A DNA stretch of 64,000 nt, taken from assembly GCA_033580375.1 (NCBI GenBank), contig GCA_033580375.1_4527.1; one strand, 5' to 3'. This stretch comes from a phage. This document shows positions 51,574-52,437 of the stretch, piece after piece. The position numbers and the translations under genes are program-made. The stretch's first letter is position 1, and each line of letters opens with the position of its first letter. The notes below the pieces were generated by a model. That model worked only from the letters and a program-made list of their open reading frames with translations. It had not been told where the DNA came from and did no database searches.

Positions 51574-51604
51574 ACTAAAAAGCCCCAACCTTTCGGAAGG
51601 GGCT
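51574..51604 (-). terminator. Rho-independent terminator; 24-bp hairpin identical to 35088-35111
   Basis: AGCCCC...GGGGCU hairpin plus U-run on minus strand, downstream of the tRNA/stable-RNA region. Confidence 0.65.
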
Positions 51605-51900
51605 AAGCCTTGCGGCGACCTTGTCGGGGTTCCACCTGCTAAGGCAAGTGTTTGTACGAAACGCCGGGATTCGAACCCGGTTATTAAGCAGTTGACGCTA
51701 CTCAATATTTTTAAAAGGCCATATCTCGACCATATCCGAACGTTCCGTCAAAAACGCTACTCGGCTTACGGCAAAGATATTTCCTCGAATCGATAATTCT
51801 GTGCGCCGTTTCTGCTGTGATGTAAGGGGATATTAACGAATCATAAAGATTTATTAAGACCAGTCCTTACTCAGGGAACATCAGTCCGACGACTTGCCGG
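51605..51900 (-). other. ORF-free region with a perfect tRNA-type T-arm (CCGGG-UUCGAAU-CCCGG); possible small stable RNA(s) or degenerate tRNA
   Basis: T-arm consensus read on minus strand at about 51665-51681; I could not complete a canonical cloverleaf by hand. Confidence 0.3.
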
Positions 51901-51917
51901 TAGCGACCCGGCTTCTC

Positions 51918-52262
51918 TTATTTTGGCATATCATCAATTTGCTCTCTACGCCGACGCCATAGATTAATCGCTTCATAGGCACATTCTGCGTTTGGTATAT
52001 GACGGCAATAATATAATGATTCACGTTTCTGAAACCGATGTTGCAATGGGATTTCGTTTAAAAGGTCTTTACGATCAAAGTATTCAAAACTAGTTAACCC
52101 TGAACGGTTTTTAATGAACTTCCAATGACCGAATTCATTTTGAACATAGATGTAATCAGCGTGTTGATAAAGTGAATTAATCAATCGGTCTGAAATAACT
52201 GTATCATGTTCGTTAAAATAAAACGTTAAATCATGAACTACTAAATAGACATTACCTTTCAT
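51918..52262 (-). CDS. Hypothetical protein, about 114 aa, embedded in the tRNA region
   Basis: ATG 52260-52262 with GAGGAAA SD; ORF track start 52310 would overlap tRNA-Arg. Confidence 0.5.
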   Translation of the reverse strand: MKGNVYLVVHDLTFYFNEHDTVISDRLINSLYQHADYIYVQNEFGHWKFIKNRSGLTSFEYFDRKDLLNEIPLQHRFQKRESLYYCRHIPNAECAYEAINLWRRRREQIDDMPK

Positions 52263-52280
52263 ATTTTCCTCACTTATAAT

Positions 52281-52357
52281 TGGCCGAGACAGAAGGATTC
52301 TAACCTTCAACCTACGGATTAGAAGTCCGTTGCTCTATACAATTGAGCTATGCCTCG
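52281..52357 (-). tRNA. tRNA-Arg (anticodon UCU), 77 nt with encoded CCA
   Basis: Hand-folded cloverleaf: acceptor CGAGGCA/UGUCUCG, D-stem GCUC/GAGC, anticodon stem ACGGA/UCCGU with loop CUUCUAA, T-arm GAAGG-UUAGAAU-CCUUC, then G-CCA. Confidence 0.8.
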
Positions 52358-52363
52358 AATATA

Positions 52364-52437
52364 TGACCCAGACCAGATTCGAACTGGTAACCTTTCCCTT
52401 ATGAGGGGACTGCTACTAACCGTTGAGCTACAGGGCC
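52364..52437 (-). tRNA. tRNA with CAU anticodon (Met, or Ile if lysidine-modified), 74 nt, no encoded CCA
   Basis: Hand-folded: acceptor GGCCCUG/CUGGGUC (one U-U mismatch), anticodon loop CUCAUAA, T-arm ACCAG-UUCGAAU-CUGGU. Confidence 0.7.

What the first reader, a model, noticed from the sequence alone, without database searches (positions are those of the whole stretch)
51574..52437. tRNA island: two tRNAs plus an ORF-free 300-bp stretch with an orphan tRNA T-arm
tRNA-Arg(UCU) and a CAU tRNA fold by hand. The 51605-51900 stretch has no plausible minus-strand ORF and contains a perfect CCGGG-UUCGAAU-CCCGG T-arm, but I could not build the rest of a cloverleaf. It may be a small stable RNA (T4 encodes two next to its tRNAs) or a degenerate tRNA. 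It ends at a terminator hairpin that is an exact 24-bp copy of the one at 35088-35111.
Basis: seen in the sequence. Interest (0 to 1): 0.5.

Follow-up and report, generated by a model that had tools for sequence, protein, structure and literature searches.

The report
T4 stable RNAs rnaC and rnaD
The "ORF-free stretch with an orphan T-arm" is this RB69-like phage's copy of the two small stable RNAs long known from phage T4 (species 2/rnaD and species 1/rnaC); they are ordinary for this phage group, their function is still unknown, and rnaC turns out to be a well-conserved mimic of the top half of a tRNA.

Summary
ARAGORN and Rfam find tRNA-Arg(UCU) (52281-52357, -) and a CAU tRNA (52364-52437, -). 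The CAU tRNA matches T4 tRNA-Ile at 71 of 74 bases.

The ORF-free stretch is about 93% identical to T4 rnaD plus rnaC. In the window, rnaD is about 51800-51921 (-) and rnaC is 51655-51793 (-). A conserved trailer follows (51605-51651), then an intrinsic terminator (51577-51604) that is an exact 28-bp copy of 35084-35111.

The T-arm (51664-51680) is not orphan. In 28 distinct rnaC homologues from about twelve genera, the 5' and 3' ends pair into an acceptor stem next to the T-arm. The D and anticodon arms are replaced by two hairpins whose six-base loops are complementary to each other. Of 48 proposed pairs, 34 show compensatory changes, and 93.8% of cells are paired against about 40% in controls.

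No Rfam family matches either RNA. No copy turned up in a pattern-limited scan of bacterial genomes. The papers I could read (2010-2025) call the function unknown.

Verdict: already known, unannotated in RB69-type records, low to moderate interest. The value added is a covariation-backed structure for rnaC.

The parts
52364..52437 (-). tRNA with anticodon CAU; orthologue of T4 tRNA-Ile (the AUA reader), with no encoded CCA
   Evidence: ARAGORN; Rfam 52.1 bits; 71 of 74 bases identical to T4 tRNA-Ile and unlike the RB3 tRNA-Met(CAU)
52281..52357 (-). tRNA-Arg(UCU) with encoded CCA; unusual T-loop UUAGAAU and a D-loop without GG
   Evidence: ARAGORN; Rfam 69.8 bits with alignment
51918..52262 (-). 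114-aa ORF (RB69ORF150c homologue, phrog_3355, function unknown) lying between tRNA-Arg and rnaD. T4 and RB3 lack it; some Tequatrovirus phages have an ORF of similar size at the same position
   Evidence: arrangement in slur13 and Elenatom; T4 and RB3 have tRNA-Arg directly next to rnaD
51800..51921 (-). rnaD (species 2 RNA) orthologue. The conserved core is 51801-51916. It has a 5' hairpin at 51896-51912, a long-range helix between 51887-51893 and 51801-51808, and a variable central hairpin
   Evidence: Mapped from the T4 and RB3 annotation; alignment A5 and its structure, 93% paired against 33-49% in slid controls, 11 covarying pairs
51794..51799 (-). A/U-rich single-stranded spacer GAAUUA between rnaD and rnaC; probable endonuclease (RNase E-type) processing site
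   Evidence: The sequence AAUUAU precedes rnaC in T4-likes and also in Karamvirus/Moonvirus, where the upstream neighbour is tRNA-Trp. The link to RNase E rests on my memory of the older T4 literature and was not tested
51655..51793 (-). rnaC (species 1 RNA) orthologue, a tRNA-like RNA
   Evidence: Mapped from the T4 and RB3 annotation; covariance model R1 scores it 153.4 bits, E = 3e-30
51786..51792 (-). rnaC acceptor stem, 5' strand CGAUUCG
   Evidence: Pairs with 51657-51663. Pair 3 covaries A-U/G-C/G-U and pairs 1 and 2 also covary. The tandem U.U becomes U-A and C-G in phiR1-RT and U-A, U-A in PM2
51721..51785 (-). rnaC arm 1: the AGG strand of a 3-bp helix (51783-51785; its CCU partner lies at about 51715-51717), then a long irregular hairpin (51721-51780) that occupies the position of the D arm
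   Evidence: Helices 2-5; 17 of its 21 pairs covary; the body of the arm is entirely replaced in fGh-Ecl04, PEi20, Kosakonia 305, Marfavirus and Gelderlandvirus while pairing is kept
51746..51751 (-). Apical hexaloop of arm 1, UUGACG
   Evidence: Complementary to loop 2; 99.4% of cells paired across 28 distinct sequences; compensatory changes to UUGGCG/CGCCAA (Marfavirus clade) and UUGAUG/CAUCAA (phiR1-RT)
51682..51707 (-). rnaC arm 2: a 10-bp hairpin immediately 5' of the T-arm, with hexaloop CGUCAA at 51692-51697
   Evidence: Helix 7: 8 of the 9 pairs scored covary; the loop is complementary to loop 1
   Evidence: Helix 8: 100% paired; the middle pair covaries G-C/U-A/A-U
51657..51663 (-). 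rnaC acceptor stem, 3' strand CGUUUCG, followed by U and then ACA
   Evidence: The tail after the U is ACA in T4-likes, CCA in Marfavirus and PM2, and UCA in phiR1-RT
51605..51651 (-). Conserved 3' trailer, including the hairpin CACUUGC-CUUA-GCAGGUG at 51633-51650. A block of about 30 nt is invariant, even in phages that lack rnaC
   Evidence: Alignment A8; loci L007 and L008; fold
51577..51604 (-). Intrinsic terminator AGCCCCUUCC-GAAA-GGUUGGGGC followed by U5, which ends the tRNA/small-RNA operon
   Evidence: In T4, transcription of the tRNA cluster terminates after the species I gene (PMC2330249)
35084..35111 (-). Exact second copy of the terminator, after the ORF at 35118-35420 downstream of tk; it is followed by an early-promoter-like site GTTTAC-N17-TATAGT

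Best explanation
The window comes from an RB69-like (Mosigvirus) T-even phage. The flagged region is the distal end of its tRNA operon, read on the minus strand. The order is tRNA-Ile(CAU), tRNA-Arg(UCU), a 114-aa ORF, rnaD (species 2 RNA), rnaC (species 1 RNA), a conserved trailer and an intrinsic terminator.

Shown here: orthology to the annotated T4 and RB3 rnaD and rnaC, and the secondary structures. rnaC is a tRNA-like RNA whose 5' and 3' ends form a 7-bp acceptor stem, with a tandem U.U in most lineages, next to a canonical T-arm. A bulged GG co-varies with the T-loop, as G18/G19 of a tRNA elbow would. In place of the D and anticodon arms there are a long variable hairpin and a 10-bp hairpin. 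Their hexaloops (UUGACG and CGUCAA) are complementary and co-vary. This implies a loop-loop 'kissing' contact, either within one molecule or between two.

Inferred: the RNAs are co-transcribed with the tRNAs, as in T4. Host tRNA-processing nucleases then cut them out, and the A/U-rich spacer GAAUUA is a likely endonuclease site. The tRNA-like top half gives rnaC defined ends and stability.

Speculative: mature rnaC acts in trans as a mimic or decoy of the acceptor/T-arm/elbow half of a tRNA, aimed at some tRNA-binding host factor. Both RNAs are dispensable accessories whose value depends on the host.
For: Identity. The 344-nt stretch matches 806 phage records, and 680 of them cover at least 80% of it. 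RB3 and Kha5h annotate rnaC and/or rnaD under the match. T4 and RB3 annotation tables are, the base-level alignment and the coordinate transfer.

rnaC structure. RNAalifold predicts 41 pairs, 25 of them compensatory. On A4, 97.8% of cells are paired against about 40% when partners are slid. On 28 distinct sequences, 93.8% are paired against 37-47%, 34 of 48 pairs covary, and 0 of 500 shuffles reach the observed value.

Kissing helix. It is 99.4% paired and has two independent compensatory changes. These loops are unpaired in the covariance model, so fitting the alignment to the model does not bias the count.

Elbow. GGCCU goes with T-loop UUCRANY, and CGCCU goes with UGCAU(G)C.

Modularity, like a tRNA gene. 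rnaC lies between tRNA-Trp and tRNA-Gly in Karamvirus, Moonvirus and Gelderlandvirus. It is cleanly absent in Dhakavirus and is replaced by an ORF in Gaprivervirus.

Expression in T4. RNAC and RNAD were detected, with a Northern blot (PMC9697503). They are co-transcribed with the tRNAs, and transcription terminates after species I (PMC2330249).

Host-dependent value. A SNP in rnaD arose in all lines of a T4-like phage evolved on ECOR34 (PMC12685909).
Against: There are no expression data for this phage.

The mature ends are transferred from the T4 annotation. Here an ORF, not tRNA-Arg, lies next to the 5' end of rnaD, so that end is uncertain.

The annotated T4 rnaC keeps a 5' U at position -1 and ends in ...GUA. 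That does not look like a product of RNase P cleavage plus CCA addition, so the tRNA-type maturation I infer may be only partial.

The two kissing-loop compensatory changes are only two evolutionary events. In PM2 the complementarity shrinks to 4 bp.

Three sequences have lost the canonical T-loop.

No partner or phenotype is known. The papers I could read (2010, 2022, 2025) all call the function unknown. The decoy idea has no direct support.
Confidence: 0.9

Rival explanations
1. The RNAs act only in cis. They would be structured 3' portions of the tRNA-operon transcript that protect it from 3' exonucleases, or guide its processing or termination, and their accumulation as 'stable RNAs' would be a by-product.
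For: They always lie at the 3' end of the operon or inside tRNA arrays. The trailer next to the terminator is the most invariant block and persists without rnaC. The RNAs are dispensable in whole genera.
Against: A simple protective hairpin would not need an acceptor/T-arm/elbow mimic, two invariant complementary hexaloops and a conserved NCA tail. In Karamvirus and Gelderlandvirus rnaC is internal to the array, not at its 3' end.
Confidence: 0.15
2. The T-arm marks a decaying tRNA pseudogene with no function of its own.
For: It has an acceptor stem and a T-arm and sits where tRNA genes sit. ARAGORN and Rfam do not call it a tRNA.
Against: 34 of 48 pairs are kept by compensatory change across about twelve genera, including the non-tRNA arms. 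Loop sequences are invariant while the stems beneath them vary. In T4 it is a detected RNA (PMC9697503). No parent tRNA can be recognised beyond the T-arm.
Confidence: 0.04
3. The stretch encodes small proteins, as many GenBank records annotate ('hypothetical protein' over the match).
For: Many records carry CDS features here. ORFs of 61 and 86 aa exist in the window.
Against: Homologues differ by 1-4 nt in length in the linkers (143-147 nt), which breaks any frame. The substitutions are paired rather than showing three-base periodicity. Curated T4-family records annotate RNAs here, not CDSs.
Confidence: 0.02
4. The conservation is at the DNA level, for example a homing-endonuclease target (SegB recognises GGTTCRANTCC) or a recombination site.
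For: SegB cleaves T-arm-like sequences in tRNA genes (PMC2330249). The region is rich in indels among relatives.
Against: A DNA site does not explain compensatory base-pair changes over 140 nt or complementary loops. No seg gene lies in this island in the window.
Confidence: 0.03

Closest known systems
Phage T4 rnaC (species 1 RNA) and rnaD (species 2 RNA), small stable RNAs of the T4 tRNA operon
   Same: About 93% nucleotide identity over the whole stretch. Same order (tRNA-Arg ... rnaD, rnaC, terminator), same strand logic and the same trailer and terminator.
   Different: A 114-aa ORF (phrog_3355) separates tRNA-Arg from rnaD here, so the 5' end of rnaD cannot be made by tRNA-Arg 3' processing as in T4. 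The RB69 record itself annotates nothing in this stretch.
tmRNA tRNA-like domain
   Same: The 5' and 3' ends pair into an acceptor stem next to a T-arm. There is no anticodon arm, and a non-tRNA body is inserted between the two halves.
   Different: rnaC is 139 nt rather than about 360 nt. It has no tag reading frame and no G3:U70 (pair 3 is A-U or G-C). ARAGORN and Rfam do not call it tmRNA, and no CCA is encoded in most lineages.
Class II tRNAs and tRNA-Sec (long variable arm)
   Same: A long hairpin lies immediately 5' of the T-arm, plus an acceptor stem and a T-arm. There is a weak tRNA-Sec hit (16.6 bits, E = 3.6).
   Different: That hit uses an internal CGGAACG as the acceptor strand. 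Covariation assigns CGGAACG to helix 5 of arm 1 instead. There is no anticodon arm or D-arm, and the score is far below the gathering threshold (47 bits).
Bacterial Y RNA-like YrlA (tRNA-mimicking module)
   Same: It is also a non-coding RNA that mimics part of a tRNA, including a T-arm.
   Different: As I recall it, in YrlA the termini form the Ro-binding stem and the tRNA-like part is internal; this was not checked here. No RF02553 match falls on rnaC; the only weak YrlA hit lies on the real tRNAs.
PeSL composite terminator/promoter cassettes of T4-type phages (Arbiol 2010; Comeau 2014)
   Same: A repeated stem-loop terminator sits at the borders of variable ORFs. The copy at 35084 is followed by an early-promoter-like GTTTAC-N17-TATAGT. 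phiC120 carries an extra ORF bracketed by two copies at this very spot (PMC4122927).
   Different: The copy at 51577 has no promoter with correct spacing downstream. Only two copies are present in this 64-kb window.

Membership tests
T4 rnaC (species 1 RNA) | Sequence homology to the RNA annotated in T4, T2 and RB3 | tested here: met
   Aligned to T4 70908-71046 and RB3 RB3_s001 with few substitutions. The window scores 153.4 bits against the covariance model and T4 scores 154.8 bits.
T4 rnaC (species 1 RNA) | Location at the distal end of the tRNA operon, before its terminator | tested here: met
T4 rnaC (species 1 RNA) | Accumulates as a discrete stable RNA of about 140 nt in infected cells | not testable with these tools
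   Known only for T4 (Northern blot, PMC9697503).
T4 rnaD (species 2 RNA) | Sequence homology to the RNA annotated in T4 and RB3 | tested here: met
   The invariant 5' block AGAARCCGGGUCGCUACCGGYAAGUCGUCGGACUGA and 3' block UCACAGCWGAAACGGCGC are shared.
T4 rnaD (species 2 RNA) | Immediately follows tRNA-Arg | tested here: not met
   Here an ORF (51918-52262) intervenes. The same variant exists in slur13 and Elenatom. This is a difference in context, not in the RNA.
tRNA (RF00005) | Acceptor stem plus T-arm | tested here: met
   Helices 1 and 8 show covariation.
tRNA (RF00005) | D-arm and anticodon arm with a 7-nt anticodon loop; detected by tRNA finders | tested here: not met
   No ARAGORN call. 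No RF00005 hit even at E up to 10. The arms are replaced by arm 1 and arm 2.
tmRNA | tRNA-like domain with G3:U70, a tag ORF, pseudoknots, and detection by ARAGORN or Rfam | tested here: not met
   Pair 3 is A-U, G-C or G-U(1).
tRNA-Ile2 (CAU anticodon, lysidine-type) for the 52364-52437 gene | Orthology to the T4 tRNA annotated as isoleucyl | tested here: met
   71 of 74 bases identical. T4 annotation.
tRNA-Ile2 (CAU anticodon, lysidine-type) for the 52364-52437 gene | C34 modified so that AUA is read | not testable with these tools
   Needs RNA mass spectrometry or decoding assays.
Intrinsic terminator | GC-rich hairpin followed by a U-tract on the transcribed strand | tested here: met
   AGCCCCUUCC-GAAA-GGUUGGGGC plus UUUUU. 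The simple scan tool missed it because of the internal U.U pairs.

The most novel reading that the evidence does not exclude
rnaC defines a phage-restricted family of tRNA top-half mimics that has no Rfam family. It combines an acceptor stem, a T-arm, an elbow-like GG/T-loop contact and an NCA 3' tail with a body clamped or dimerised by a 6-bp kissing-loop contact. On this reading, host tRNA enzymes complete its 3' end, possibly by adding CCA. The finished RNA then works as a decoy or competitor for a host factor that recognises the acceptor/elbow half of tRNA, for example an anti-phage toxin that attacks tRNA 3' ends. That would explain why it is dispensable in laboratory hosts yet conserved in about twelve genera.
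Probability: 0.15. Interest if true: 0.7.

Novelty: already known. Interest (0 to 1): 0.3.

Why it matters
For genome annotation, RB69-type and many other T-even records leave this stretch blank or fill it with spurious 'hypothetical proteins'. They should carry rnaC and rnaD, and the CAU tRNA should be called Ile, not Met.

For biology, the function of these two RNAs has been open since the 1970s. The papers I could read, up to 2025, still call it unknown. The covariation-backed model of rnaC gives concrete handles for mutagenesis and partner searches:
- an acceptor stem made from the two termini
- an elbow-like contact between a bulged GG and the T-loop
- two complementary hexaloops
- an NCA 3' tail

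The natural deletions in Dhakavirus and Gaprivervirus, and the tRNA-array context in Karamvirus and Gelderlandvirus, supply ready comparisons. The presence of the RNAs in this window is itself unsurprising.

Tried and rejected
- **Rfam.** At gathering thresholds and at E up to 10, nothing matched but the two tRNAs. The weak hits (tRNA-Sec, isrK, ceN54, ceN115, YrlA) are chance or lie on the tRNAs.
- **An internal acceptor strand.** I first paired the internal CGGAACG (51739-51745) with the 3' strand, which is also the basis of the weak tRNA-Sec hit. I rejected this. In Karamvirus the pair becomes A.C, the segment is absent from phages whose arm 1 body has a different sequence, and it covaries as part of helix 5.
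- **A hammerhead in rnaD.** rnaD contains CUGAUG ... GAAAC. I rejected a hammerhead because the flanking strands pair with each other, which is the wrong topology, the core has U where A9 should be, and no Rfam hammerhead hit appears.
- **A parent tRNA for rnaC.** Only the T-arm aligns to any phage tRNA.
- **Homologues outside phages.** None of 39 pattern matches in the bacterial and archaeal genome collection passes the covariance model. Of 80 metagenome pattern matches, only one does, and it is a 167-kb phage contig. These scans required fixed motifs, so divergent relatives could be missed.
- **Literature on function.** Searches for rnaC/rnaD, species 1 RNA, p2Sp1 and tRNA-like decoys found nothing beyond 'unknown'. 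A look-up of one classic paper by DOI failed, and the searches returned none of the 1970s-80s papers, so statements about RNase E, RNase III and the exact mature ends rest on memory.
- **Pfam on the neighbouring ORFs.** Nothing significant; PHROGs gave only unknown-function families.
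Full report
**What is in the sequence.**
On the minus strand, ARAGORN finds tRNA-Met(cat) at 52364-52437 and tRNA-Arg(tct) at 52281-52357. Rfam RF00005 confirms both, at 52.1 and 69.8 bits. Downstream lie the following features:
- a 114-aa ORF at 51918-52262
- an ORF-poor stretch that contains CCGGG-UUCGAAU-CCCGG at 51664-51680
- a GC-rich hairpin with a U-tract at 51577-51604
- the start of the next gene at 51486

The 28-bp string AAAAAGCCCCAACCTTTCGGAAGGGGCT occurs exactly twice in the window, at 35084-35111 and 51577-51604. None is expected by chance. The 344-nt stretch folds far better than shuffled controls (z = -5.0). The repeat is 28 bp rather than 24.

**What it is.**
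The window is an RB69-like Mosigvirus: it is 98.9% identical to phiC120 and 95% to RB69 over 1 kb. The ORF-free stretch matches 806 phage records. In curated T-even records the features under the match are rnaC and rnaD (RB3, Kha5h, ATK47/48, T2L, T4).

The T4 reference has this order: tRNA-Arg 71173-71247, rnaD 'species 2 RNA' 71053-71171, rnaC 'species 1 RNA' 70908-71046. RB3 has the same order. A four-way alignment is 92% identical on average. It transfers the boundaries to window 51921-51800 for rnaD and 51793-51655 for rnaC.

The RB69 record annotates nothing in this stretch, and many other records put 'hypothetical protein' on it. No Rfam 15 family matches either RNA, even at E up to 10.

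**Why the T-arm looked orphan.**
I collected rnaC homologues from these sources:
- Tequatrovirus, Mosigvirus, Karamvirus, Moonvirus, Kanagawavirus, Winklervirus, Gelderlandvirus, Tegunavirus and Mosugukvirus
- Edwardsiella phage PEi20
- the Klebsiella Marfavirus group
- IMG/VR contigs

A covariance model (R1) recovers 28 distinct sequences at 91-164 bits.

The consensus structure has five parts:
- a 7-bp acceptor stem made from the 5' end (CGAUUCG, 51786-51792) and the 3' end (CGUUUCG, 51657-51663)
- a 3-bp AGG/CCU helix leading into a long irregular hairpin (arm 1)
- an A-rich linker
- a 10-bp hairpin (arm 2, 51682-51707)
- the T-arm

On the 28 sequences, 93.8% of cells are paired against 37-47% when partners are slid. 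Of 48 pairs, 34 show changes on both sides, and no shuffle out of 500 reaches the observed values. That alignment is fitted to the model. The independent MAFFT alignment gives the same picture: 97.8% paired against about 40%, with 26 covarying pairs.

The two central acceptor positions are U.U in 26 sequences. They become U-A and C-G in phiR1-RT, and U-A and U-A in PM2. They are therefore part of the helix.

So the T-arm belongs to a tRNA-like 'top half'. No cloverleaf can be built because the D and anticodon arms are simply absent.

**Two further contacts.**
The apical loop of arm 1 is UUGACG (51746-51751) and the loop of arm 2 is CGUCAA (51692-51697). They are perfectly complementary. The stems beneath them vary freely, but the loops change only together:
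- UUGGCG/CGCCAA in the Marfavirus clade
- UUGAUG/CAUCAA in phiR1-RT

PM2 keeps a 4-bp core. These positions are unpaired in the covariance model, so the count is not biased by fitting to the model. This points to a six-base-pair kissing contact. I cannot tell whether it forms within one molecule or between two.

The second contact involves the bulge just 5' of the CCU strand. It reads GG wherever the T-loop is UUCRANY, and CG in the three sequences whose T-loop is UGCAU(G)C. That is what a G18:U55, G19:C56-type elbow contact would produce. It rests on one or two evolutionary events and is only a lead.

After the acceptor stem comes U, and then ACA (T4-likes), CCA (Marfavirus, PM2) or UCA (phiR1-RT). 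This gives a conserved NCA tail.

**rnaD.**
rnaD is confined to Tequatrovirus, Mosigvirus, Gaprivervirus and Dhakavirus. It has these parts:
- an invariant 5' block that includes the hairpin GCCGG-GUCGCUA-CCGGC (51896-51912)
- an invariant 3' block
- a central hairpin that varies, and is wholly replaced in Elenatom and TH44

The proposed fold is 93% paired against 33-49% in slid controls, with 11 covarying pairs. The long-range helix never varies, so it is neither supported nor contradicted.

**Context and modularity.**
In Karamvirus, Moonvirus and Gelderlandvirus, rnaC sits between tRNA-Trp and tRNA-Gly with spacers of a few bases, exactly like a tRNA gene, and rnaD is absent. Dhakavirus has rnaD followed directly by the trailer, which is a clean loss of rnaC. 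Gaprivervirus has other sequence and an ORF in place of rnaC.

A trailer block of about 30 nt (within 51605-51651) is invariant in all of these phages. The A/U-rich AAUUAU sequence before rnaC is shared by T4-likes and Karamvirus.

None of 39 pattern matches in the bacterial and archaeal genome collection is a true hit. Only one of 80 metagenome matches is, and it is a phage contig. Within the limits of those fixed-motif scans, the family appears phage-restricted.

**How it most likely works.**

*Shown:* orthology and structure.

*From the literature on T4:*
- The tRNA cluster is transcribed as one precursor that ends after the species I gene (PMC2330249).
- RNAC and RNAD were detected, with a Northern blot, and classed as late RNAs (PMC9697503).
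- Their roles are unknown (PMC3014915; PMC9697503; PMC12685909).
- A SNP in rnaD arose in all lines of a T4-like phage evolved on ECOR34.

*Inferred:* here the operon runs from upstream of 52437 to the terminator at 51577-51604. Host nucleases release the RNAs, and the tRNA-like half of rnaC accounts for its defined ends and stability.

*From memory only:* RNase E separates species 2 from species 1, and RNase III can cut species 1 in vitro. I could not retrieve those papers.

*Speculative:* mature rnaC is a decoy for a protein that reads the acceptor/elbow half of tRNA. The annotated T4 ends (5' U at -1, 3' ...GUA) argue that maturation is not fully tRNA-like.

**The other pieces of the finding.**
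The CAU tRNA matches T4 tRNA-Ile at 71 of 74 bases and is unlike the RB3 tRNA-Met(CAU). It is therefore the AUA-reading Ile tRNA, mis-named Met by anticodon-based callers. It lacks an encoded CCA and lies 6 nt from tRNA-Arg.

The ORF at 51918-52262 belongs to phrog_3355, of unknown function.

The terminator repeat fits the composite terminator/promoter (PeSL) cassettes that mediate indels in T4-type genomes (PMC4122927):
- The copy at 35084 follows an ORF downstream of tk, and is itself followed by GTTTAC-N17-TATAGT.
- The closest relative, phiC120, has an extra 155-aa ORF just after the 51577-type terminator. That ORF is bracketed by a second, degenerate copy of the terminator.

**Verdict.**
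The finding is a correct identification of a known but usually unannotated feature. Novelty: already known. Interest is low to moderate. The structure, the kissing loops and the distribution add testable detail to an old open question, but they do not change what the element is.

Noticed in passing
window 52364-52437 (-): The CAU tRNA is called Met by ARAGORN and by many GenBank records, but it matches T4 tRNA-Ile at 71 of 74 bases. It lacks an encoded CCA and lies 6 nt (UAUAUU) upstream of tRNA-Arg, like the T4 dimeric precursors.
   Followed up: partly
window 52281-52357 (-): tRNA-Arg(UCU) has the T-loop UUAGAAU (A where C56 normally is). Its D-loop, AAUUGUAUA, has no GG. This may be a swapped elbow pair (U19:A56-like). 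It is not the same lineage as the T4 tRNA-Arg.
   Followed up: no
window 51605-51651 (-): The trailer between rnaC and the terminator contains a block of about 30 nt (AACACUUGCCU..AGCAGGUGGAACCCCGACAAGG) that is invariant across Tequatrovirus, Mosigvirus, Gaprivervirus and Dhakavirus, even where rnaC is missing. It is more conserved than either RNA, and its role is unknown.
   Followed up: partly
L234 (phiC120) 313-850; window 51560-51604: The closest relative carries an extra 155-aa ORF immediately after the terminator. The ORF is bracketed by the terminator and a degenerate second copy, so the repeated hairpin is an indel junction (PeSL-like).
   Followed up: partly
window 35040-35111 (-): The second terminator copy is followed on the minus strand by a T4 early-promoter-like site, GTTTAC-N17-TATAGT, ahead of the ORF that starts near 35016-35055.
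   Followed up: no
window 51918-52262 (-), 52517-53032 (-), 50923-51486 (-): Three ORFs around the island belong to unknown-function families phrog_3355, phrog_2290 and phrog_2280. phrog_3355 and phrog_2290 also lie next to each other after a tRNA in Karamvirus (L005).
   Followed up: partly
L017 1132-1274; L034 5957-6101; L051 4200-4344: Three rnaC homologues replace the T-loop UUCGAAU by UGCAU(G)C, and at the same time change the bulge GGCCU to CGCCU. This may be tertiary covariation.
   Followed up: partly
window 51873-51880 and 51809-51813 (-), within rnaD: The invariant unpaired motifs GACUGAUG and GAAAC in rnaD resemble a hammerhead core or box C/D. The topology does not fit and Rfam gives no hit, so this is probably coincidental.
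   Followed up: partly
window 52438-52516 (-): The intergenic region upstream of the CAU tRNA contains TGCTCTA followed about 11 nt later by CATAAT. This resembles a T4 middle (MotA-box) promoter and is a candidate operon promoter. It has only been read by eye.
   Followed up: no
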